The notes under the pieces: generated by a model | Databases searched by the model: none | The model's input: only the letters and a program-made list of their open reading frames with translations | What the model was told of the DNA's origin: nothing | NCBI GenBank assembly: GCA_028715965.1 | Contig: JAQUQS010000001.1 | Location: 97,332 to 161,331, forward strand | Origin: Candidatus Omnitrophota bacterium | GTDB lineage: Bacteria > Omnitrophota > Gorgyraeia > Tantalellales > Tantalellaceae | Direction of reading: 5' to 3' | DNA: 64,000 nucleotides | In this document: positions 12,451 through 64,000 of the stretch, piece by piece | Numbering within the stretch: the first letter of the stretch is position 1 | Layout: every line of letters begins with the position of its first letter | Made by a program: the position numbers and the translations under genes

Positions 12451-12529
12451 TGGTCGGGACGGCCGGATTTGAACCGGCGACCCCTAGTCCCCCAGACTAG
12501 TGCGCTAAACCAGACTGCGCTACGTCCCG
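12451..12529 (-). tRNA. tRNA-Pro, anticodon GGG.
   Basis: The reverse complement is CGGGACGTAGCGCAGTCTGGTTTAGCGCACTAGTCTGGGGGACTAGGGGTCGCCGGTTCAAATCCGGCCGTCCCGACCA. It folds by hand into a cloverleaf: a 7-bp acceptor stem, a GCGC D-stem, an anticodon stem CTAGT/ACTAG with loop CTGGGGG, a T-arm GCCGG-TTCAAAT-CCGGC, and an encoded CCA. Confidence 0.8.
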
Positions 12530-51624: not shown

Positions 51625-53226
51625 TCATGGACAGGCAGTATCATCCGACGATATTTTACTTGTTTCCGTCGAGAACCATCCTCCGGTATAGGCATCGATA
51701 TACGCGGTCAGCTCTTCTACTCGATGAACATCTTTCCGGGCACCGCCAAGGTCTTTCCTCTCTTTCCGCGAACCTGTGGCCCGTTCTCTATCCAGGATAA
51801 GCTGGATAGTCCTTTTTCTCTCGAAATATAACCGTGTAACCTCATCAAGGATATCATTCCTAAGCTGGACCATGAGCTTACTGCGCACGTCGATACTCGT
51901 TTCCGAAGCGTCCCACACCAGCTCTGATAGGTCCCAGGTGAAGTTGACCCCCCAATCGTTGTCCGTTTCCCGGGGGCCCTCGAACACGTAAGAGGTGGTA
52001 GCACTGGTATATATCTCCTTATTATCATCGCTGGACTCGGAAAAGCTGAGGGATACCCTGGGGAACAACCCCTTCCACTTCAGGGCATCTCTCCACTTCC
52101 TTATTTTTGAGGGAGATACGTCGGCATACTCGACGGCCTTTCTACATACTTCCTTTATATCCGGCCCCGGGGCCATGAACCATTCACCGTAACCCCCATC
52201 TGTCCCTGTATCCGGCAATTCCACGTTACCCATACAGAGTTCATACACCTCGGAACCACGTCCCAACAATATCCCAGTACCACACTCGCCCGATCCATAT
52301 ATTTCCATGCACGGAACGGACCCGGCACCAGGGGCCCGGAATATCATATCCCATCCATGGCCATCTTTCCTTAAAGCAAAAACACCATCGCCCGCGAGCG
52401 CGAATATGGTCCCTCCCCCATAGCCCACGCTCACCGGATCATATGCTGACGGTAACTTTTCGGGTATTTTAAGATAAGTCATATCGTCAGGGGCCACCAT
52501 GTATATGTTCCCGTTATCAAGCACGACAAAACCGTCCGTATCCTCGCAATATTCAATGTGTCCCGCAACAGGCGTTATAACGTCGCTCTCTTCTTCCTCC
52601 GCGGGTTCCGTCATATCAGCCTCATCCTCTTCACCTGTGTTCGCGTCGTGGAACGCCAGGTCCCGCCAGTTCTTTTCCCGTGCGTCACAGATGAAGAATC
52701 TCCCATCCGAAAGGCATGCTATCCGGCCCCCGCTATTAAGCACATCCACTATCCGCCCGCACCTTTTGGACAGACCTAGTTTACTTATACTTCCTGCCGG
52801 CGTTCCAGAAAAATATATCTCGCGCTCGCTCCAGACTACCATTCCATCGTTATCGGCGGACATCCCCGTCATCCTCCCGGGTGTTCTCTTGATCTCCCAC
52901 CCTTCATCCTCCTTGCGATAAACCAAGCCTTTCACGGTCAGGACAACGACCTCTCCCCCCATGAAACATATATCCTTTACCCCGCCGCTCCCGGCCGGAA
53001 GACGCTCTTCTTTCCAGTTATTTTTCCCTTTCTCTGAAACAAAGAGACCTTCGGTCGTTCCCGCGAATATCCTGTCATTGTCCTGGTCTCCGGCCACAAG
53101 ACATAACACCTTACCGCACAATCCTTTACACGATATTTCACCTCCACTGGCAACACCTGTAAAGAACAGGAATATGACCAGCGATATCACCTTTATTTTC
53201 AATGGATATTTCTTCACGGACAACAT
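51625..53226 (-). CDS. Secreted hypothetical protein with a signal peptide, a Gly/Asp-rich N-terminal half (possible beta-propeller), an acidic linker and a C-terminal domain of unknown function.
   Basis: The 533-aa ORF has an N-terminal hydrophobic signal (LKIKVISLVIFLFFTGVASG), BNR/Ycf48-like repeats (e.g. IFAGTTEGLFVSEKGKNNW), an acidic stretch (EEDEADMTEPAEEEESD), and AAGGGGAAAT directly before the ATG. Confidence 0.8.
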   Translation of the reverse strand: MLSVKKYPLKIKVISLVIFLFFTGVASGGEISCKGLCGKVLCLVAGDQDNDRIFAGTTEGLFVSEKGKNNWKEERLPAGSGGVKDICFMGGEVVVLTVKGLVYRKEDEGWEIKRTPGRMTGMSADNDGMVVWSEREIYFSGTPAGSISKLGLSKRCGRIVDVLNSGGRIACLSDGRFFICDAREKNWRDLAFHDANTGEEDEADMTEPAEEEESDVITPVAGHIEYCEDTDGFVVLDNGNIYMVAPDDMTYLKIPEKLPSAYDPVSVGYGGGTIFALAGDGVFALRKDGHGWDMIFRAPGAGSVPCMEIYGSGECGTGILLGRGSEVYELCMGNVELPDTGTDGGYGEWFMAPGPDIKEVCRKAVEYADVSPSKIRKWRDALKWKGLFPRVSLSFSESSDDNKEIYTSATTSYVFEGPRETDNDWGVNFTWDLSELVWDASETSIDVRSKLMVQLRNDILDEVTRLYFERKRTIQLILDRERATGSRKERKDLGGARKDVHRVEELTAYIDAYTGGWFSTETSKISSDDTACP

Positions 53227-55832: not shown

Positions 55833-58800
55833 TTACGCGGACCGGAGGAACATCAGGAGTTTCTGCTGGTCCTCTTTCCACGTGTTCACTACCGGGGTCA
55901 TGATCGGCAACGATATGCTGCCATCAAGGATCTTCTCGATAACATCCGGATCGTTCTCGTCGATGATGTCCGGGATGGATATCATCATCTTAAGATACCG
56001 GATGATGTTAGACCTCACTTCCTGCCTTACCTCTGATGGAGCCTCCGCCGCGGCCGCTTGTCTTTCGGCTATCCTCTTATAGTTCAATAATCCCTTGCCA
56101 AGCATCACATGGTTCACGAGGTCTATCATCCCGCCGGGCGGCAGGCTGTCCTCGCTGACCACGGCAAAGCTTTTCTCCGGGTCCGGCATAAGTTCCCTGA
56201 GCACTTTAAGCGCCATCTCCCTCATGTCACGGGACACGAACACTATGGCTTTCGGCGTCTTGTCCTTATAATGATCGTCGCCCATTTCACCTATTACCCT
56301 GGAAAAGACATCCCGGAACTCGGCTTCGGCATCGGCCGCTCCCGTGTTATATCCGCGCAGGATAGTATCCATCCGGTATTCTGAGCTTTTTCGTAATAGC
56401 TGTTTGAGTTCCGACTCAAGAGACACCTTGTCCGACATTGCCCCTACATCAGAAGGTCCGGGCGTTATTATCCAATCCGCCGTGTCGGGGACCATGTCAC
56501 CCATCATTACAGCGGCTGCCGTCATCTTCTTCTCCGGGGACGCCACAATATGATCTTCTTCCGCTTCTTCAAGAGCAAGCCCGGAATCTTCGCCTATTGC
56601 CACGGGCGCCGTCACCGGTCCCCGCGCGGGTATAAGGCTATCCATATCAAGCTCATCCGCTTCAAGGGGCGGATATTCCCTTTCAAGGAGAAGACCCCTG
56701 TAATCCGCGTCCATGAACGAGTTGAATATGGCCGCCACATTGCCGATGTGCCTCTTCAATTCCGCGGTCAGTATCTCTTCAGGATCAGCCAGCTCTCCCA
56801 TACCCATAAGTACGGCTACATCGGTCCATATCTCCTTTTTAAGCATATCCTGTCTGTCCGCGTCCATAAGACCGCTATCATCCCATACTATGTTCACGGC
56901 CGTCCTCAAGGCGACAAGGAATTTCCTGGCCTGTGAAAGAGCCTCGACCTCCGTCTCACCAAGCACCTGTTCCCCTCGTGTCAGGGTCATGGCATTCTCC
57001 CTGAAAGCGTCCGGGCGAGCCCAGTCCCACGTGGGCATACCCGCTACAGTACGCCCCATCCATGTTATAAGGTCTATCGTCCTGAGCCCACCACGCCCTT
57101 TCTTGGTATGGTAATTGCCGGGGTTAATGTATGTGATGGACCTCATCGGGTCAGCCATATCCATTTCATCCTTGCCCTCTACGATCGCCTTGAAATCCTG
57201 CCGGAGCACATATCTCGACATCAAATGTTTGAACGTCTCGGCGTCCCTTATCGCCTCCTCGAACCCTTTACGGATATCTTCAACTGATACCGGCCCGGAA
57301 ATATATCTCCAATCCATTATGGACCTCATACCCGCGATGTCCCTTTCCTCGAAGTAATCCAGATAATCCTTCTGGAATTCATCCATGGTAAGCGCTTTTA
57401 TATTGTGGTCCGCGCCCACTTCCGGATACGCGGGATAATCCAGAGTGACACCGGTTATCTCTCCGGCCAACATCCCGAACTCCGCGGCTTGCCTGCGAAG
57501 CGTAACGATGTCGTCCCGGTCCTTGATAAGGATGAACAGATCAAGGTCCGTCCCATAAGGCGCGGCTCGGCGCGCGTAACTTCCCATACCTATAAGGGTA
57601 ACTTTGTCGGCTATACCCATGAATTCCGCGAGCCTGATTATCGTATCGTCTATGAGGTCCGAATATGCCGAACCAAAGTCGAATTCCTTTCCGCTGAGGG
57701 CCGCGTCACGGAACTGGCCTTTAATGCCCTGTAGTTCCTCTCGGAATTTGTCCCTGGCATATTCCACATATTCTTCCAGGGTCGCGAAAACCTCACCAGC
57801 ATCCTCCTCTTGTTCCTCCCTGTATATTGTCGACCGCATGGCCGCGGCGGCCTGTTCGGGAGTAATACCGGTAAGTGAGGTGAATTTCGCCCGTTCCCAC
57901 TCAGTGTATGCCGCGTTCGCCCCTTCTTTATACGGAGCGGCGGCGTATTCAAACCCCATCATCATCCTCAAGCCTTCCGGAAAACTGTGCCTGTCGGGAT
58001 CGCGGTTATCGAAGACCGTGAGCATCCTCCATGGTGACCCGACGTATATTTCATCCAGCCACGGGTCCGAACTGAGATCCTCCCTCTCTCGCTCATCAAG
58101 TTCAGGCAGAATATCATTTATCGTGACCATGTTCTCCGTAAGGAGGTTTCCCGCGTTGTCCCTCAATAGGTTCATTTTCACGTCCTCATCCATATCCATC
58201 CCCAGAAAAATGTTCAACGCGAACGTGGCGACATATGGGATCGCCAATATCACCTCAATGTCTGGGCGGGCCGCGTCTATCATCGCGATCATCTCGTCCG
58301 CGTCCCATCCGGAGAAGGACGAGTCGTCAAAGATCACGACTTTCCCTCCATCAGGGATCCCGTCAAGTCTCGCGAGCCATCCAGAACGCGCGCCGTTCTC
58401 GTCATGGTTCGAGTATATTTCCACCGGTTCCCCGATATCGGCCCTTAAGGTTTCCCTCGCCATCTGGTATACATACATTTTCGACTTGTTGGACGTTTTC
58501 CCCAGTATCACGCCCCAGGCCCCCTTATCATAACCTTCCAGTTCCCGATTTATCGCTTCGGCCATGCTCCTTACTTTGTCCCGGAACTCCTCGAACGTTA
58601 TATATCTCAGATTGTCCAGGAGCGCGTTCCTGATCTCCTCCAGTTTGGAGACATGCTGCGGGAATTTTGCCTTATATTCCTCGAACTTGTCCGACACGTT
58701 GCGCCTAAGCGCGTCAAAGTCCCCTATGAGGCGCCTTTCCGGGACCTCGAATTCAGACCCGAGCGCTTCCAGGACTTCCGCATCTTCGGCGAAAGGAAGG

Positions 58801-61800
58801 GGCTCTTCGGGGTTATTCCGGCTCCACACCCAAAGGTTGCCTTTTTCCCCTTTAGCGGAATCCTCCACGATATTCAACTGGTCCGTGACCCCTACTCCCC
58901 ATAGTTCCAGGTCACTTTTCGCGAATACCCGGTTATCCATAAGAAGAGTCTGGTTAAATCCCGCCACGGGCTTGATCACTATTGTTCCGTCGGGCCTGAG
59001 TTTGTTAAGCAAACCCTCATTCTGCAACATGTTCACGAGATCGTTCGTTATGTCGGGTCCGGCGGGATTCATAAGAAGTATGCTGTCCAGGGAACCGTCG
59101 GGCATGGCCCTCAGGATATCCATATCCGCCCTGAGTATGGCCAAACGCGGATCGTTCCGCCTTTGCGCCCTGAGCCGACCCCTCTCCCAGTCCCTTGCCC
59201 ATCCCCCGTATAGAGGCACCTTGTTCTCCGTATCGTATATATCCGTGGCTATAACGGCCATATCCGGGTTCGCCCTTACCAGCTGGTCCGCGAACGTGGC
59301 CGTGCCACATCCTATTTCCAGCACGACCTTATTTATACCGCTCGCCGCGTCCGATCTTTTTCTAAGGATATCCAACGCTTTTCTCGCCTCGCCGGATGGG
59401 TTCCCCCGGGTCAAAAGATAATCCATTACCCCCGGCTCCGTCGTCCCTGTCCCCGAGCGCTCTCCCGTCCCGGGGAACATGGAATCCTTAAGACCCGCGA
59501 GGTCCGACCAATTGCCAAGCGTAGCGTGTAATGCCGTCATCACCCCGGCCATGAAGGTTATGTATGCCCCTGCCGGGGACGCGACCAAAAGGGGTGATAT
59601 CATCATTAACCCCGCGCCATAAATAAGCTCTGCTATCGGCCCCGACGCATAAATGACAGCTCCTTTGGCCCCTTGTTCAAAGTTCATGTGCCTCACCGCG
59701 AACGTGGGGAATATCCTCTTCCCGCGAGCGGTTTCCCAGCTCATCACGAATTTCGGCTTTGCCCCGAAGATCTTTCCCGCGATGAAATGCCCCACTTCGT
59801 GTATCGCTATAGCCGGGATGAAGAAAAGCGTCAAGATCAATATATTATTCAAGAGACCCGGTATCCCGAAATCGGTCCTGACACCCTCATCCGGCATAGC
59901 GGGCATATTAAGCAACAGCATCTCGACCGCCTGCGCTGATGTCCTTTGCAGCTCATAGTTGCTCCACCATCTTATTATGAGCGCCTGCCTGGCGGTAAGC
60001 CTGGAAGTATCATCCCGGTATTGGCCGAAAGCCTCCCTGACCGCGTCCATATCGTCCGGCGCGAAAAACGGGTCCTCGTTCCTGATCAGGTCGAAATAGT
60101 ACGCGGTCCTAGCTCTATAATGCTCAGCGAGGTCTTTCACTCCCTTAGCCGCAAGCTCACGGTCCTCCGGAGATACCGGTTCTCCGATACCTGCACCCCT
60201 CAGCTTGTCGAGCGCGGCAAGGGCCAGTGCCCTTATGACAAAATCCCTTTTCTCCTTCACCATGGTATCGTCCCTTGCCAGGTCCAGCATATCGGACACG
60301 GACACGGGCTTACTGTCATATACCATGATCTTTTCCGCGTACCCGGACGGCTGCTCTTCATACATCTCATATCTCATCTTAAGGATCCGGCCGTCATCAC
60401 CCCGTTTGTACGAGTTCAGTATACCTTCCACGACCGGGGTATTCCGCAGGACCCAGCCCTCCTCGCCAGGGGAAAGCCATAGCCAGTAATCCGCATCGTT
60501 CTCAAAACCGCTTATCTTCACTTCTTCGTCAAGGGACATACCGCTCTCTCTGTAATAGAAATGGAGCGCTTCATGTATAAGTCCGGAACGCAACATGTCA
60601 TCCGAAGCGAAATTTGATACCGGCAGGGCAATGAACCCTTTTTCCGTGTCCGCGTGCGCGTAATTCTTATCGGCCGAGAACCTGAGCTCTTTCGTTCTCA
60701 GAACGACTATCACTCCCTCTATCATGCGTCTCTGATCAGGGGTGAGCGCTTCCTTGATACTTTCGTAATGTGACGCTATGGCCCCGGCCTCGGCCTTCAT
60801 TCTTTCTGTGTAGCCGATATCGGCACCGGACACTCCTGAGAAAGACATGCTCGTGGATTGTCGTTGGAGCCCGGCCGTCCCGTCCCCTTCACCGGGCACA
60901 GGTGCCTTGCCAGCAGGTGACAGGGCATACAGCAAAAGGCTGATAAGGCCCATCCCAATGGTAAGAGAGACGCACAGACCGGGTTTCGTCCGGGAAAGGG
61001 CAAAAAGACGGTCCAGCTTTCCTCTGTAATCCACTCCCCTGATCGCGGATACAGCCCTTGATGACAACAGTTTAAGCGTAAAATGTCTAAGTACGTGATA
61101 TCCCAAAAGTGTTCCGACGACCACCATCGCGTGCACCGGAGTGAACCCGCTTATTAGTATCACGCTCACCACAATGAACGCCATAACGGCCTTTTTGTGA
61201 GCGTCGGAGACACGCGCGGGCATGTTCTCCTGCCCGGTCCCCCCGGTAGTACCGGCTTCCGTTCCAGCATCGCCGCTCACGCCCGGGCTCGCGGACGCAT
61301 CGACAAGCTCAGCCTGCGGTCCCAACGGCGGACCGGGGAGGGCTTCACGCCTTTCTTTTCGCGCTTCCGCTACCAGTTCGCTCACCGGTATGCTCACGGG
61401 TCTTCCGATCTCCTTACCATTCCTCATCAAGGCACAATTCAACGTTCCCGACGTGCTGTCGTAAACCACACTCAGGTTCCGGGCGTCTTCCCCTATCGCG
61501 TTTATCACGTTCTTGATATTTCCGTTCTCCCTGCCAAGTTCGGCCAGCACACGCACGGCGGCGCGGAACGCATCTATCTCTTCCTGTCCGCACACGGCTT
61601 CGGCAAGTATCGGGTTGAGCTTGGACGCTACGGCCATCATGGATGCCTTGGCTATCACCGAGCTCAGCATTCTCTGGAGATCCGTGGTCTGGCCGGCTAA
61701 TATCTCATAATACGGGTCCTTGAAATCATCTTTCACGGTGAACTTGGGGAGTATGGATACGTACGATATACCCTTTTTCCGGAAAAGCTCACAGATATTC

Positions 61801-63347
61801 TCCGTATGGAACCCTCCTGTCATGAGCATAGCCGCCTCCGCGGGGCCGCGCACTTCTTCGAACCGTATGTTGTCAAGGAACGCCTCGTCACGCTTGAACG
61901 AATACGCGTAGAACGCGGAAATATCTCCCAGATACTTGTTCAGGTTGGCACAGTCATCCGATATCTCAAGTGTTATACCGTGCTCCTTCGACGCGGGCAG
62001 AAGAAAATCCGTATAGGCTTTTACCGAAAAGGTCTCCCTGTTACCCCGATAATAATAATAGTCCGTCTTTATCAGCTTTATATCGAACATGTTCCGCATT
62101 ATGGACAGATTACGTGAAAGCCTGTTCAATGTCCTTTGTTCGGCGCTGGTATACAATGGCTCCCTGACGGCATCCTCATATTTGTCGAGCTCCTCCATCA
62201 CCCGCGTCCTGTCGACGGATTCATAAACCGTCACATATCCGATATATTTGGAAAGTTCCGGGAACCTGCCCGGGTCGAGGCCTACCTCCCTCACCTTATC
62301 GAACAGATATCCATAGAACGCCCTGAGCGAAAGTCTTTTTGTCTTGAAAGCCACACTCTTTGACACAAGCTCTCTAGACTCGTTCCTTGAAAGCCGCTCT
62401 TTCAGCTCTTCGACAAGAGCGGTGCGTTCGACATTGGCCCTCTCGAAATCTATATCGTCCTCTTTCTCCAAAGCGGACGAAAGAAGAGAAAGGTTACGGA
62501 ACCCGTTAAGTCCAACTCCTGTTACCCTGCCCTTATCCACCAGGTAACGCAGATATTTGCCAAAGTCCATGTTGCCGGATTTATAAGCCGCGTAGGAAAT
62601 ATCGAGACTGATAAGTTCTTTCGAGAAAAGATATACTTTCAGGTTGTTAACAGCACGGGAAAGCTCGCTTATATATCGGTCCACATCCGCCTTGTACGAC
62701 AAAGAATCCCGGTACACCTCCAGGTTGGCCAGATACAATTCTTTGTTCTCAACCCCCCACAACCGTACCTTGTCCGGGTTATTCGCCGCATAAAATTCCG
62801 CGCCGCTTATATCGCCTTGTTTGACAAAATAATCCGCCACTTCCCTGCGTATTTCCGTACCGGTTATGGACGTAAAGGGCGTAAGATCGTACTCACCCAC
62901 GCCCCCTTCCAGGTTCACGAGCCGCACGCCGTATTCCTTACTGATGTAATCGATGATATCGGCTATCTTATGCTGGGCATAAACGTTACAATGCGCGTCC
63001 TGTATATGGACAACGAACTTATCAGAACTTCCTTTGTAGCCGAATTGTACCTCTCCAAGATGTTCGGGTATGGTTATGGTCGAAGCGTCCAGAAGGGAAT
63101 ACGATATGTTATGCGCGTCATCCGTAGTGATCGCGTAGGGGATCTGCGCGGGCTGCTCGATAGCGGACCATGCATCGGTCAATACATTGGTAACAAAAAA
63201 AGCGACAAGAACGACTGTTCCAGTCACTTTTCGCGCCAACCCGTATTGCCCAAACCATGGTCTGAACATAATGAACCTCATAAGTCTTTTGTTTACACGA
63301 CTTACATTGGGCAAAGGTTTTGCTTTACCCTTTTGACCTTCCTGCAT
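55833..63347 (-). CDS. Giant multidomain membrane protein (2504 aa) of unknown function. It has an N-terminal TM anchor, an unrecognised domain of about 640 aa, a Gly/Pro linker, TM segments, HEALH and M50-like HEVGH metalloprotease motifs, a SAM-methyltransferase motif, a PRTase-like motif and a GlnD/GlnE-like nucleotidyltransferase module.
   Basis: An uninterrupted 7515-nt ORF at about 50% GC cannot arise by chance. The motifs read directly from the translation are: TM helix around aa 42-58; HEALH at aa 925 (nt 60561-60575); LFFIPAIAIHEVGHFIAGKIFG at aa 1183 (59787-59801) inside a hydrophobic stretch; KVVLEIGCGTATF at aa 1340 (59292-59330); GGKVVIFDDSSFSG at aa 1670 (58311-58346); SAYSDLIDD...LIGMGSYARRAAPYGTDLDLFIL at aa 1915-1940 (57531-57599); KKGRGGLRTIDLI (57071-57110). 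Confidence 0.9.
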   Translation of the reverse strand: MQEGQKGKAKPLPNVSRVNKRLMRFIMFRPWFGQYGLARKVTGTVVLVAFFVTNVLTDAWSAIEQPAQIPYAITTDDAHNISYSLLDASTITIPEHLGEVQFGYKGSSDKFVVHIQDAHCNVYAQHKIADIIDYISKEYGVRLVNLEGGVGEYDLTPFTSITGTEIRREVADYFVKQGDISGAEFYAANNPDKVRLWGVENKELYLANLEVYRDSLSYKADVDRYISELSRAVNNLKVYLFSKELISLDISYAAYKSGNMDFGKYLRYLVDKGRVTGVGLNGFRNLSLLSSALEKEDDIDFERANVERTALVEELKERLSRNESRELVSKSVAFKTKRLSLRAFYGYLFDKVREVGLDPGRFPELSKYIGYVTVYESVDRTRVMEELDKYEDAVREPLYTSAEQRTLNRLSRNLSIMRNMFDIKLIKTDYYYYRGNRETFSVKAYTDFLLPASKEHGITLEISDDCANLNKYLGDISAFYAYSFKRDEAFLDNIRFEEVRGPAEAAMLMTGGFHTENICELFRKKGISYVSILPKFTVKDDFKDPYYEILAGQTTDLQRMLSSVIAKASMMAVASKLNPILAEAVCGQEEIDAFRAAVRVLAELGRENGNIKNVINAIGEDARNLSVVYDSTSGTLNCALMRNGKEIGRPVSIPVSELVAEARKERREALPGPPLGPQAELVDASASPGVSGDAGTEAGTTGGTGQENMPARVSDAHKKAVMAFIVVSVILISGFTPVHAMVVVGTLLGYHVLRHFTLKLLSSRAVSAIRGVDYRGKLDRLFALSRTKPGLCVSLTIGMGLISLLLYALSPAGKAPVPGEGDGTAGLQRQSTSMSFSGVSGADIGYTERMKAEAGAIASHYESIKEALTPDQRRMIEGVIVVLRTKELRFSADKNYAHADTEKGFIALPVSNFASDDMLRSGLIHEALHFYYRESGMSLDEEVKISGFENDADYWLWLSPGEEGWVLRNTPVVEGILNSYKRGDDGRILKMRYEMYEEQPSGYAEKIMVYDSKPVSVSDMLDLARDDTMVKEKRDFVIRALALAALDKLRGAGIGEPVSPEDRELAAKGVKDLAEHYRARTAYYFDLIRNEDPFFAPDDMDAVREAFGQYRDDTSRLTARQALIIRWWSNYELQRTSAQAVEMLLLNMPAMPDEGVRTDFGIPGLLNNILILTLFFIPAIAIHEVGHFIAGKIFGAKPKFVMSWETARGKRIFPTFAVRHMNFEQGAKGAVIYASGPIAELIYGAGLMMISPLLVASPAGAYITFMAGVMTALHATLGNWSDLAGLKDSMFPGTGERSGTGTTEPGVMDYLLTRGNPSGEARKALDILRKRSDAASGINKVVLEIGCGTATFADQLVRANPDMAVIATDIYDTENKVPLYGGWARDWERGRLRAQRRNDPRLAILRADMDILRAMPDGSLDSILLMNPAGPDITNDLVNMLQNEGLLNKLRPDGTIVIKPVAGFNQTLLMDNRVFAKSDLELWGVGVTDQLNIVEDSAKGEKGNLWVWSRNNPEEPLPFAEDAEVLEALGSEFEVPERRLIGDFDALRRNVSDKFEEYKAKFPQHVSKLEEIRNALLDNLRYITFEEFRDKVRSMAEAINRELEGYDKGAWGVILGKTSNKSKMYVYQMARETLRADIGEPVEIYSNHDENGARSGWLARLDGIPDGGKVVIFDDSSFSGWDADEMIAMIDAARPDIEVILAIPYVATFALNIFLGMDMDEDVKMNLLRDNAGNLLTENMVTINDILPELDEREREDLSSDPWLDEIYVGSPWRMLTVFDNRDPDRHSFPEGLRMMMGFEYAAAPYKEGANAAYTEWERAKFTSLTGITPEQAAAAMRSTIYREEQEEDAGEVFATLEEYVEYARDKFREELQGIKGQFRDAALSGKEFDFGSAYSDLIDDTIIRLAEFMGIADKVTLIGMGSYARRAAPYGTDLDLFILIKDRDDIVTLRRQAAEFGMLAGEITGVTLDYPAYPEVGADHNIKALTMDEFQKDYLDYFEERDIAGMRSIMDWRYISGPVSVEDIRKGFEEAIRDAETFKHLMSRYVLRQDFKAIVEGKDEMDMADPMRSITYINPGNYHTKKGRGGLRTIDLITWMGRTVAGMPTWDWARPDAFRENAMTLTRGEQVLGETEVEALSQARKFLVALRTAVNIVWDDSGLMDADRQDMLKKEIWTDVAVLMGMGELADPEEILTAELKRHIGNVAAIFNSFMDADYRGLLLEREYPPLEADELDMDSLIPARGPVTAPVAIGEDSGLALEEAEEDHIVASPEKKMTAAAVMMGDMVPDTADWIITPGPSDVGAMSDKVSLESELKQLLRKSSEYRMDTILRGYNTGAADAEAEFRDVFSRVIGEMGDDHYKDKTPKAIVFVSRDMREMALKVLRELMPDPEKSFAVVSEDSLPPGGMIDLVNHVMLGKGLLNYKRIAERQAAAAEAPSEVRQEVRSNIIRYLKMMISIPDIIDENDPDVIEKILDGSISLPIMTPVVNTWKEDQQKLLMFLRSA

Positions 63348-63606
63348 GGCTATATTATTATGTATAATAACTATCTTTCTATAAGTTTACAGCCAATACA
63401 AGTTTACCTGTCCACATATAAATATCCAAGTCGCTATTTCTTGCTTTTTTAAACGCTAACAAACGCGGCGATCACCCGGACACGCGCCATACGATCGGAT
63501 CTATATCAGAAAGAGATGTTATTTATTAAATATTGAAAACACATGTGTTTAGAGTTACAATTTTTATGACCGATATAGCCAGCTTAGGTCCAGAAATGAG
63601 GTTCAA

Positions 63607-64000
63607 ATGAACAAGGTGGTATTGTTACGTCACGGTGAAAGCGTATGGAACAAGGAAGGCCTGTTCACAGGATGGACAGACGTGGACATCTCTGAGAACG
63701 GAATGCATGAAGCGCATGAAGCGGCACGGCTGTTAAAAGAGAACGGGTTCTTTTTTGATGCCGCTTTCACTTCCCTGCTGAAAAGGGCCATACGCACTTT
63801 GTGGATAGTCCTTGAGGACATGGAACTCATGTGGATCCCGGTATATCGTTCATGGCGTCTCAATGAAAGACATTATGGCGCGCTCCAGGGCTTGAACAAG
63901 AAAGAGACCGCGGCCAAGTTCGGCGAGGACCAGGTCCATGCATGGCGACGAAGTTTCGACGTGCCTCCTCCACTCCTGGAGATCTCTGACGAAAGGTTCC
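63607..64000 (+). CDS. gpmA: 2,3-bisphosphoglycerate-dependent phosphoglycerate mutase, 5' portion. The gene continues beyond the window.
   Basis: It begins [32 protein letters not shown], the catalytic His of the RHGE motif, and continues with ..[12 protein letters not shown]... There is no stop within the window. Confidence 0.85.

What the first reader, a model, noticed from the sequence alone, without database searches (positions are those of the whole stretch)
55833..59330. C-terminal 1150 aa: methyltransferase + PRTase-like + GlnD/GlnE-like NTase with the GGLRDIEF-like motif
SAYSDLIDDTIIRL...LIGMGSYARRAAPYGTDLDLFIL aligns position-by-position with the PII uridylyltransferase / GS adenylyltransferase nucleotidyltransferase core (..YSDLVD.. 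/ ..GGYGRGEL.P.SDIDLL.L). The downstream KKGRGGLRTIDLI matches the conserved GGLRDIEFI element of GlnD, GlnE and DUF294 proteins. Upstream lie a class I SAM-MTase (motif I at 59292-59330) and a PRTase-like PRPP-binding loop (58311-58346). This suggests a nucleotide-handling or protein-nucleotidylylating effector arm tethered to the membrane protease-like part.
Basis: partly seen in the sequence, partly recalled or inferred. Interest (0 to 1): 0.7.

Follow-up and report, generated by a model that had tools for sequence, protein, structure and literature searches.

The report
GlnE-like nucleotidyltransferase arm, Omnitrophota modular protein
The tail of a 2,504-residue membrane protein from an uncultured Omnitrophota bacterium does carry a methyltransferase, a phosphoribosyltransferase-like domain and an intact GlnE/GlnD-type nucleotidyltransferase, but these are swappable enzyme "cargo" in a large Omnitrophota family of capped modular proteins, not a nitrogen-regulation enzyme.

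Summary
The minus-strand ORF 55833-63347 (2504 aa) is 100% identical to a hypothetical protein from a Candidatus Omnitrophica MAG. Its last 1165 aa contain four modules.

- A (aa 1340-1520): class I SAM methyltransferase, TrmB/NpmA-like.
- B (aa 1568-1826): PRTase-CE / retron-III-A-like phosphoribosyltransferase domain. The PRPP loop is present, but 4 of 17 family-conserved positions differ.
- C (aa 1860-2219): GlnE/GlnD/DUF294-type nucleotidyltransferase plus its helical partner. Pfam GlnD_UR_UTase scores above its threshold. A profile hits E. coli GlnE structures. All 25 conserved positions are kept.
It models confidently (pLDDT 92) and has no close solved relative.

D ends at the last residues of 91 related proteins. 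139 proteins share an N-terminal signal/anchor plus a TIKI/TraB/ChaN-like domain, and 73 have both caps. The cargo between the caps varies widely: kinases, proteases, GNATs, PEP-utilisers. The NTase module sits at different positions in about 14 Omnitrophota giants.

It is not GlnD or GlnE: there is no HD domain, no ACT domain and no second NTase, and the window has no gln genes. The most likely activity is protein AMPylation or UMPylation, with target and cellular side unknown. I rate it a new variant of a known kind, of moderate interest.

The parts
55833..63347 (-). Whole ORF, 2504 aa (NCBI annotates a start 26 codons downstream, giving 2478 aa); Candidatus Omnitrophica hypothetical protein PHH49_00815
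   Evidence: P0001, 100% identity
63162..63224 (-). N-terminal hydrophobic segment (aa 42-62). It is preceded by 10 K/R and followed by an acidic stretch, so it is a probable Sec signal peptide or signal anchor (possible cleavage after LTDA)
   Evidence: the same charge pattern holds across 125 homologues. Inference only; no dedicated predictor was available
61428..63095 (-). N-cap (aa ~85-640): the family-defining domain with a TIKI/TraB/ChaN/erythromycin-esterase-like fold and a large helical insert; motifs HIQDAHCN, NLEGG and TGGFHTEN
59508..61202 (-). Membrane and HExxH region (aa 716-1280). Hydrophobic segments lie at ~720-758, 790-812, 1164-1187 (contains HEVGH; weak Peptidase_M50 match) and 1237-1280. 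HEALH is at aa 925
   Evidence: aa 850-1144 are shared only with P0018
58788..59330 (-). Module A: class I SAM-dependent methyltransferase (aa 1340-1520). Motif I is LEIGCG and motif II is IATDIYD; it belongs to the TrmB/NpmA-KamB-like subgroup
   Evidence: 87 homologues. 8 of 13 hit Methyltransf_4 and 3 of 13 hit NpmA. The profile hits KamB-type 16S rRNA MTase 3MQ2 at E=1.9e-4. 16 of 18 conserved positions are kept
57870..58646 (-). Module B: PRTase-CE-type phosphoribosyltransferase-like domain (aa 1568-1826). The PRPP loop VVIFDDSSFSG is present. The conserved FDHRxPDxHSF reads VFDNRDPDRHSF here
   Evidence: Alignment A3. Query PF24390 E=3.6e-4, 20.9 bits, below the gathering score; 8 of 14 members hit. 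Standalone homologue P0237 hits PADLOC PRTase_III-A at E=5.7e-9. 4 of 17 conserved positions deviate
57423..57770 (-). Module C, part 1: Pol-beta-type nucleotidyltransferase core (aa ~1860-1975). G1922-S1923, then D1934-x-D1936, with D1970 as the third carboxylate
   Evidence: These columns are invariant in alignment A1 and align to the GlnE active-site strand in 3K7D. 9 of 13 family members hit DUF294 NTase PF03445
56691..57422 (-). Module C, part 2: helical companion domain (aa ~1976-2219), including the Pfam GlnD_UR_UTase match (aa 2081-2211) and the K2082-x-G-x-G-G-x-R2089 element
   Evidence: 41.8 bits, above the gathering score of 21; aligned to GlnE 3K7D and 1V4A
56562..56690 (-). Acidic, low-complexity linker (aa 2220-2262)
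   Evidence: Read directly from the sequence; not conserved in A1
55836..56561 (-). Module D, the C-cap (aa 2263-2504): a three-layer α/β domain plus helices, always at the extreme C-terminus of family members

Best explanation
The last 1165 residues are four independently folding modules joined by linkers.
- A: a class I SAM methyltransferase.
- B: a divergent PRTase-CE-type phosphoribosyltransferase-like domain.
- C: a GlnE/GlnD/DUF294-clade nucleotidyltransferase with its helical partner domain, with every family-conserved residue intact.
- D: a 240-aa α/β C-cap.

The protein belongs to a large family seen almost only in Omnitrophota. An N-terminal signal/anchor plus a TIKI/TraB-like N-cap, and the C-cap, bracket interchangeable enzyme cargo. 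The NTase is one such cargo cassette.

Shown: domain identities, conservation of the catalytic residues, the modular shuffling, and the absence of GlnD/GlnE hallmarks.

Inferred: module C binds NTP-Mg through G1922/S1923 and D1934/D1936/D1970. It then transfers NMP (AMP or UMP) to a hydroxyl, most likely a Tyr on a protein target, as GlnE, GlnD and DrrA do. In this protein the arm most likely faces the cytoplasm, downstream of five membrane passes, where SAM, PRPP and NTPs are available.
For: - Identity and origin.
- Module boundaries and independent occurrence.
- NTase: PF08335 above its gathering score. The profile hits GlnE 3K7D and 1V4A with the active-site motifs aligned. All 25 positions that are at least 90% conserved are kept. 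12 of 13 relatives hit PF08335 and 9 of 13 hit PF03445. The only distant named hits are GlnE-annotated.
- MTase.
- PRTase-CE.
- C-cap.
- N-cap.
- Variable cargo in family members (kinases, M48, PEP-utilisers, GHKL, GNAT, metallophosphatase, FHA, cNMP-binding): precomputed Pfam column.
- Taxonomy: every named NTase-bearing relative is Candidatus Omnitrophota. Of 3 genome loci found, 2 are Omnitrophota MAGs and 1 is a MAG labelled Planctomycetia.
- Topology: the two strongly basic loops (aa 759-789 and 1188-1236, 8 K/R each) both fall on the cytoplasmic side if the N-cap is outside and the C-arm inside.
- Literature: membrane-anchored multi-enzyme long proteins are described for this phylum (bioRxiv 10.64898/2026.06.07.730766).
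Against: - No substrate is known, and no structure of module C was computed, so active-site geometry rests on a profile alignment at E=1e-4.
- The topology comes from a crude hydropathy and charge count. If aa 1237-1280 is one helix rather than two, the arm is extracytoplasmic.
- In P0002, P0005, P0121 and P0124 the same NTase module follows the N-cap with no hydrophobic segment between them. If the N-cap is exported, the NTase would be outside the cell, where there is no NTP.
- Module B lacks a near-invariant His, so it may be inactive.
- The GlnE/GlnD-clade fold does not by itself prove that the acceptor is a protein.
Confidence: 0.6

Rival explanations
1. Exported effector. The N-cap/C-cap family would be a polymorphic, MARTX-like set of secreted or injected multi-effector proteins of a predatory or parasitic bacterium. 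The GlnE-like domain would AMPylate a prey or host protein, as Legionella DrrA/SidM does. The MTase and PRTase would be co-delivered effectors.
For: - Family-wide, the N-terminus looks like a Sec signal or anchor: K/R before and D/E after the first hydrophobic segment in 125 proteins.
- 55-74 of 139 members have no further hydrophobic segment. Their ATP-, SAM- or acetyl-CoA-dependent cargo would lie on the same side as the N-cap.
- N-cap fold relatives include the toxin effectors RRSP (MARTX) and HopBA1, and the extracytoplasmic ChaN.
- The architecture of conserved termini around variable enzymatic cargo resembles MARTX and polymorphic toxins (my own knowledge).
- Omnitrophota are proposed predators or parasites whose giant proteins are implicated in host contact (PMC10066038; bioRxiv 10.1101/2023.11.21.568195).
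Against: - No secretion-system genes lie next to the gene; the neighbourhood is housekeeping.
- This protein has about 5 hydrophobic segments, and the charge distribution places its C-arm inside.
- The SidM_N Pfam match is not significant (E=0.15).
- The TM and signal calls are crude, and no processing site was identified.
Confidence: 0.2
2. Genuine nitrogen-regulation enzyme: a membrane-tethered GlnD (PII uridylyltransferase) or GlnE (glutamine synthetase adenylyltransferase) substitute.
For: The PF08335 hit and weak N-terminal matches to GlnD equivalog models; the GlnE structure hits.
Against: - GlnD equivalog scores are 10-23 bits against cut-offs of 519-1299.
- There is no HD domain, no ACT domain, no second NTase and no PF03710 hit.
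- The module is shuffled among giant proteins with unrelated cargo.
- No glnA or glnB was found among the window ORFs scanned.
Confidence: 0.03
3. Nucleotide-centric defence or conflict module. The PRTase-CE, NTase and MTase would act together on nucleotides or nucleic acids, for example depleting or modifying nucleotides as retron type III-A PRTase effectors are thought to do.
For: - Standalone relatives of module B match PADLOC PRTase_III-A and Pfam PRTase-CE.
- Modules B and C occur in the same protein in the query, P0002, P0005 and P0040.
Against: - The query's C-terminal 1165 aa has no PADLOC hit.
- B and C are far apart and in different orders in P0002 and P0005.
- P0065 has B without C, and most proteins with C lack B.
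- The protein sample was gathered by similarity to the query, so the co-occurrence is not a fair test.
- The query's module B lacks the conserved His.
- The gene neighbourhood is housekeeping.
Confidence: 0.1
4. The NTase acts on a small molecule or on RNA/DNA rather than a protein, or the arm is a decayed, non-catalytic scaffold.
For: - The Pol-beta NTase superfamily includes antibiotic, tRNA and oligonucleotide NTases.
- 3 of 13 relatives weakly hit NTP_transf_2 and DNA_pol_B_palm.
- Module A resembles RNA methyltransferases (TrmB, NpmA/KamB).
Against: - The helical GlnD_UR_UTase partner domain and the KxGxGGxR element are specific to the GlnE/GlnD/DUF294 clade. The characterised members of that clade modify proteins (my own knowledge).
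- All 25 conserved positions are retained, which argues against decay.
Confidence: 0.12

Closest known systems
E. coli GlnE (glutamine synthetase adenylyltransferase), AT-C domain, PDB 3K7D; AT-N domain, 1V4A
   Same: Both have a Pol-beta NTase core with G-[SG]...D-x-D and a third Asp. Both are followed by a helical domain carrying the K-x-G-x-G-G-x-R/T-x-I-E element. The match is a profile hit at E=1e-4 over 225 positions.
   Different: - GlnE has two tandem NTase/helical units; the query has one.
- PF03710 does not hit the query.
- Identity is about 20%.
- The query is embedded in a 2504-aa membrane protein with unrelated cargo, and no GS context is evident.
GlnD (PII uridylyltransferase/uridylyl-removing enzyme), TIGR01693 / PF08335
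   Same: PF08335 scores above its gathering score. The N-terminal helix plus NTase region aligns weakly to GlnD positions 11-93.
   Different: There is no HD domain and there are no ACT domains. The equivalog score is 20.6 against a cut-off of 519.
DUF294 nucleotidyltransferases (PF03445 + PF10335)
   Same: 9 of 13 members of this NTase subfamily hit PF03445 at E<=0.01 (P0003 is above the gathering score when scanned as a whole protein), and 1 of 13 hits DUF294_C.
   Different: The query itself scores only 12.6 bits. It has none of the CBS or cNMP-binding domains that typically accompany DUF294.
Legionella DrrA/SidM AMPylation domain (a GlnE-like effector)
   Same: It is a GlnE-like NTase used as a protein-AMPylating effector in a host-dependent bacterium, which makes it a functional analogy for the novel reading.
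   Different: Only an insignificant Pfam SidM_N match (E=0.15). No homology is demonstrated.
PRTase-CE (PF24390) / retron type III-A PRTase effector (PADLOC PRTase_III-A)
   Same: Module B's family hits both models. The acidic PRPP loop is conserved.
   Different: The query is below the Pfam threshold. It has N in place of the near-invariant His, plus three other deviations. There is no retron RT or ncRNA context.
TrmB (Methyltransf_4) and NpmA/KamB 16S rRNA methyltransferases
   Same: Class I SAM-MTase motifs I and II are shared. The match rests on family-level Pfam and PDB profile hits.
   Different: The matches cover only the N-terminal half. The conserved 'LRA...LPDxSxDxILLVNP' region is specific to this family, and the substrate is unknown.
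Omnitrophota membrane-anchored 'multi-enzyme' long proteins (Nielsen & Lui 2026 preprint; West-Roberts et al. 2023; Seymour et al. 2023)
   Same: Same phylum. In both, many unrelated enzyme domains tile one membrane-associated polypeptide, and methyltransferase, GHKL, GNAT and kinase content recurs.
   Different: Those catalogues cover proteins of at least 10 kAA (or ORFs over 20 kb). In what I read, they do not describe a shared TIKI/TraB-like N-cap and α/β C-cap bracketing the cargo, nor a GlnE-like NTase cassette.
MARTX / polymorphic toxins
   Same: Conserved terminal regions flank a variable array of enzymatic domains. One N-cap fold relative, RRSP, is itself a MARTX effector.
   Different: There are no RTX repeats and no CPD. 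No T1SS genes lie among the called genes within 10 kb on either side, and delivery has not been demonstrated.

Membership tests
Pol-beta superfamily nucleotidyltransferase, GlnE/GlnD/DUF294 clade | G-[SG] then 9-13 residues then D-x-[DE], plus a third acidic residue on the next strand | tested here: met
   G1922, S1923, D1934, D1936 and D1970 are invariant in alignment A1. They align to the GlnE 3K7D motif.
Pol-beta superfamily nucleotidyltransferase, GlnE/GlnD/DUF294 clade | Helical companion domain (PF08335) with the K-x-G-x-G-G-x-R-x-I-[ED] element | tested here: met
   PF08335 scores 37.6 and 41.8 bits against a gathering score of 21. K2082 and R2089 are invariant.
Pol-beta superfamily nucleotidyltransferase, GlnE/GlnD/DUF294 clade | Catalytic carboxylates converge on a metal/NTP site in 3D | not tested
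Only the sequence-to-structure alignment to 3K7D is available.
GlnD (PII uridylyltransferase) | HD phosphohydrolase domain and two C-terminal ACT domains; full-length equivalog score | tested here: not met
   There are no HD or ACT Pfam hits. TIGR01693 scores 20.6 bits against a cut-off of 519.4, and PRK03059 scores 23.3 against 1010.
GlnE (GS adenylyltransferase) | Two tandem NTase (PF03710) + PF08335 units | tested here: not met
   The query has a single module C copy and no PF03710 hit. Some homologues do carry a second, partial NTase copy.
GlnD/GlnE functional context | Partner genes glnB (PII) or glnA in the genome, lacking another GlnD or GlnE | not testable with these tools
   Only 64 kb plus about 10 kb are available. 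None was found among the 39 window ORFs scanned or the called genes of L005. The ORFs at 25.8-29.6 kb were not scanned.
DUF294 NTase (PF03445/PF10335) | PF03445 and PF10335 above threshold, usually with CBS or cNMP-binding domains | tested here: not met
   The query's PF03445 score is 12.6 bits, below the gathering score of 21, and it has no PF10335, CBS or cNMP hit. At family level, 9 of 13 members hit PF03445 at E<=0.01.
PRTase-CE (PF24390) / type I PRTase fold | Pfam score above the gathering score | tested here: not met
   The query scores 20.9 bits (E=3.6e-4) against a gathering score of 27. Homologues P0232 (30.5) and P0237 (33.9) pass.
PRTase-CE (PF24390) / type I PRTase fold | Acidic PRPP-binding loop (hydrophobic strand, then D-D, then small residues) and the family-conserved FDHRxPDxHSF motif | tested here: inconclusive
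   The loop VVIFDDSSFSG is present (D1674 and D1675 conserved). The motif His is replaced (N1781), and W to Y1625, Q to D1682 and Y to W1611 also deviate.
Class I SAM-dependent methyltransferase (Methyltransf_4-like) | Motif I (E/D-x-G-x-G-x-G), the motif II acidic residue, and a Pfam hit | tested here: inconclusive
   LEIGCG and IATD are conserved. The query's Pfam hits are below threshold (19.5-22.5 bits). 8 of 13 relatives hit Methyltransf_4 at E<=0.01. The profile hits 3MQ2 at E=1.9e-4, but over motifs I-II only.
Omnitrophota N-cap/C-cap modular protein family (defined here) | N-terminal hydrophobic segment + ~560-aa TIKI/TraB-like domain at the N-terminus, and a ~240-aa α/β domain ending at the C-terminus | tested here: met
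   The query has both. 139 proteins have the N-cap (starting at about residue 50), 91 have the C-cap (ending within 10 residues of the C-terminus in 90), and 73 have both. The HMMs were seeded with the query.

The most novel reading that the evidence does not exclude
The N-cap/C-cap family would be a previously unrecognised polymorphic effector system of Omnitrophota. A Sec-exported TIKI/TraB-like N-cap and an α/β C-cap would serve as delivery, processing or docking modules. Between them sit dozens of interchangeable enzymatic warheads. The GlnE-like domain here would be a DrrA-like AMPylator or UMPylator of prey or host proteins.
Probability: 0.15. Interest if true: 0.85.

Novelty: new variant of a known kind. 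Interest (0 to 1): 0.5.

Why it matters
**Enzymology.** GlnE/GlnD-type nucleotidyltransferases are known mainly as nitrogen regulators and, in Legionella, as a host-targeting AMPylator. Here an intact, divergent member of that clade is a mobile cassette inside the modular giant proteins of an uncultured, probably predatory or parasitic phylum. That gives a concrete domain of about 400 aa that can be expressed and tested.

**The giant-protein problem.** A shared TIKI/TraB-like N-cap and a shared α/β C-cap bracket very diverse enzymes in more than 70 proteins. This offers an organising principle for part of that problem. Learning what the two caps do would explain many proteins at once.

Tried and rejected
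- **Direct phmmer of the NTase and MTase/PRTase segments against PDB** gave only TPR and apolipoprotein repeat artefacts. Profiles were needed.
- **The search for homologous proteins with the module C profile** returned only 3 GlnE-like hits, and with module C alone returned nothing, not even the query's own protein. I treat this as a word-index limitation, not evidence of absence. The exhaustive representative search did find the relatives.
- **The search for related loci** failed with A1 (no conserved stretch) and with the single module. A trimmed core alignment, A5, gave 3 loci.
- **The N-cap profile against PDB** hit acylneuraminate lyase (E=0.001). I rejected it as inconsistent with the fold search.
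- **The afdb50 fold library** was unavailable.
- **Genomic contexts of standalone relatives** P0204, P0237 and P0135 were uninformative: housekeeping genes or very short contigs.
- **PADLOC** found nothing on the query arm.
- **The upstream giant ORF on the same contig** has a tail resembling the C-cap tail, but hhalign gave E=0.14.
- **Literature searches** for 'PRTase-CE' and for GlnE catalytic Asp numbering found nothing. My recollection that the aligned GlnE residues are D701 and D703 is unverified.

Full report
**What is there**

The finding lies in one minus-strand ORF, 55833-63347, of 2504 codons. It is 100% identical to NCBI 'MAG: hypothetical protein PHH49_00815 [Candidatus Omnitrophica bacterium]', which is annotated 26 codons shorter.

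The rest of the window is ordinary chromosome: ValRS, LeuA, aspartokinase, homoserine dehydrogenase, Der, LepA, LepB, trp and his genes, AlaRS, RecA/RecX, SMC, ETF, acyl-CoA dehydrogenase and FabF. Almost all of it is on the minus strand. I found no glnA, glnB, glnD or glnE among the ORFs scanned.

**Dissecting the C-terminal 1165 aa**

An exhaustive HMMER search of this segment against 1.84 billion representatives returned 147 proteins. Their matches fall into four non-overlapping blocks. Local jackhmmer on the 255 fetched proteins confirmed the four modules.

- **Module A (aa 1340-1520).**
  - It has 87 relatives, many of them standalone proteins of about 300 aa.
  - Conserved LEIGCG, IATDxYD and LPDxSxDxILLVNP mark a class I SAM methyltransferase.
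  - The query alone is below the Pfam thresholds. However, 8 of 13 relatives hit Methyltransf_4 (TrmB-like) and 3 hit NpmA.
  - The family profile's best real PDB hit is a KamB-type 16S rRNA methyltransferase (3MQ2, E=1.9e-4), followed by CbiT, HemK and TrmB.
- **Module B (aa 1568-1826).**
  - It aligns with about 16 relatives. Of the 14 aligned members, 8 hit Pfam PRTase-CE (PF24390); the query itself scores 20.9 bits, below the gathering score.
  - One standalone relative hits the PADLOC retron type III-A PRTase effector model.
  - The acidic PRPP loop is intact. The query deviates at 4 of 17 strongly conserved positions, including N1781 in place of a near-invariant His.
- **Module C (aa ~1860-2219).**
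  - This is the headline. Pfam GlnD_UR_UTase passes its gathering score, at 37.6 and 41.8 bits.
  - A 13-sequence profile hits both solved E. coli GlnE domains, 3K7D at E=1e-4 and 1V4A. The G-S...D-x-D strand, the third Asp, the 'DxR' element and KxGxGGxRxI all align in register.
  - All 25 positions that are at least 90% conserved in relatives are kept in the query.
  - 12 of 13 relatives hit PF08335 and 9 of 13 hit the DUF294 NTase model.
- **Module D (aa 2263-2504).**

**The family context changes the picture**

All 120 best full-length hits share only the N-terminal ~560 aa with the query. That N-cap is found in 139 of the fetched proteins and always starts near residue 50.

Module D is found in 91 proteins and ends within 10 residues of the C-terminus in 90 of them. 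73 proteins have both caps.

The precomputed Pfam content between the caps is extremely varied. It includes Ser/Thr kinases, ABC1, M48 proteases, PEP-utilising domains, GHKL ATPases, GNATs, metallophosphatases, FHA, cNMP-binding domains, an amidase and glycosyltransferases.

The NTase module appears in about 14 of these giants at quite different positions. In P0002, P0005, P0121 and P0124 it sits directly after the N-cap. In P0122 and P0215 it lies thousands of residues in. Often a second, partial NTase copy follows it.

Named carriers are all Candidatus Omnitrophota. A scan of GTDB species genomes found three loci: two Omnitrophota MAGs and one MAG labelled Planctomycetia. One of them shows two family genes in tandem. 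So modules A, B and C are shuffled cargo cassettes, not a fixed 'arm'.

**The caps**

This fits the conserved HIQDAH / NLEGG / GGFHTEN motifs. I take those to correspond to the His/Glu motifs of the TIKI superfamily, but that is an inference from memory.

**Where the arm sits**

The query's N-terminus has 10 K/R, then a hydrophobic segment, then an acidic stretch. The same bias holds across 125 relatives. This looks like a Sec signal or anchor and would put the N-cap outside.

In the query, a model with five membrane passes puts both strongly basic loops on the cytoplasmic side and the C-arm inside. The passes are at aa ~720-741, 790-812, 1164-1187 (carrying HEVGH) and a 1237-1280 hairpin. A cytoplasmic arm is consistent with its need for SAM, PRPP and NTPs.

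However, 55-74 of 139 relatives have no further hydrophobic segment, and in some the NTase directly follows the N-cap. If the N-cap is exported, those enzymes would be outside the producer. That keeps an effector reading alive. These calls are crude, and I could not run a proper topology predictor.

**Mechanism**

- *Shown:* a complete GlnE/GlnD-clade NTase signature.
- *Inferred:* NTP-Mg binding through G1922/S1923 and D1934/D1936/D1970, with transfer of NMP to a hydroxyl acceptor. The acceptor is most likely a protein Tyr, by analogy with GlnE, GlnD and DrrA (my own knowledge).
- *Unknown:* nucleotide specificity, the target, and whether A, B and C cooperate.

B and C occur together in four proteins, but the sample was gathered by similarity to the query. 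Their order and spacing also differ, so I do not claim a functional coupling.

**Comparison and membership**

It works like a GlnE/GlnD-type NTase, but it is neither GlnD nor GlnE. The equivalog models score 10-23 bits against cut-offs of 519-1299. It has no HD or ACT domain, only one NTase unit and no PF03710 hit.

It is best described as a divergent, Omnitrophota-restricted branch of the GlnE/GlnD/DUF294 clade. The whole protein fits the 'multi-enzyme, membrane-anchored long protein' class reported for Omnitrophota (bioRxiv 10.64898/2026.06.07.730766).

That work covers proteins of at least 10 kAA. In the sections I read, it does not describe the N-cap/C-cap bracket or this NTase cassette.

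**Verdict**

- Observation: confirmed.
- Interpretation: partly supported.
- Novelty: a new variant of a known kind.
- Interest: moderate (0.5). This is a testable, intact, unusual NTase in an enigmatic protein family, but with no functional evidence yet.
- Most novel surviving reading: a polymorphic effector system with a DrrA-like AMPylator. I give it about 15%.

Noticed in passing
window 61428-63095 (-), aa ~85-640 of the same ORF: The family-defining N-terminal domain has a TIKI/TraB/ChaN/erythromycin-esterase-like fold with a large helical insert. It carries invariant HIQDAH, NLEGG and GGFH(T)EN motifs. Its fold relatives include the toxin effectors RRSP and HopBA1.
   Followed up: partly
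window 59508-61202 (-), aa 716-1280: The region has two HExxH motifs. HEALH (aa 925) lies in a ~300-aa region shared only with P0018, an M48+ABC1 giant. HEVGH (aa 1183) lies inside a hydrophobic helix with a weak Peptidase_M50 match (E=0.006). These are possible proteolytic modules between the N-cap and the cargo.
   Followed up: partly
P0002, P0003, P0121, P0124; L002 and L004: In several homologues the full NTase module is followed about 40-60 residues later by a second copy of only its N-terminal (catalytic) half. This is reminiscent of GlnE's tandem NTase units. The query lacks the second copy.
   Followed up: no
L002 5541-6329: Two family genes lie in tandem: a C-cap ends one giant ORF, and an N-cap-bearing ORF starts about 170 bp downstream. 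Pairs of hits also share contig lengths or have adjacent locus tags (for example P9L88_05185 and P9L88_05190), which suggests paralogue arrays.
   Followed up: no
L005 1-5365 (same contig, ~4.6 kb beyond the window's 64000 end): Another ORF of at least 1788 aa (weak Glyco_transf_5) lies upstream on the same strand. Its last residues, '...SLPIVPFDVQELKAIYDRTNEILIRA', resemble the C-cap tail consensus 'LxIxPVDxxEIxxWxxxQxxVLxxL'. The hhalign result is not significant (E=0.14).
   Followed up: partly
window 1-64000: GC skew is negative in every 2-kb bin, and nearly all long ORFs with Pfam support are on the minus strand. This indicates very strong gene-strand bias along one replichore.
   Followed up: no
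window 51625-53226 (-): A 533-aa ORF has no Pfam match at E<=0.001. It sits between a GH1 glycosidase and the fatty-acid genes, and the same gene is called on the Logan contig.
   Followed up: no
window 12451-12529 (-): The only RNA gene found in the window is a single tRNA-Pro(GGG).
   Followed up: yes
window 63348-63610: A ~260-bp AT-rich intergenic region separates the giant gene from a divergently transcribed gene (His_Phos_1 on the longer contig). It is the likely promoter region and was not analysed.
   Followed up: no
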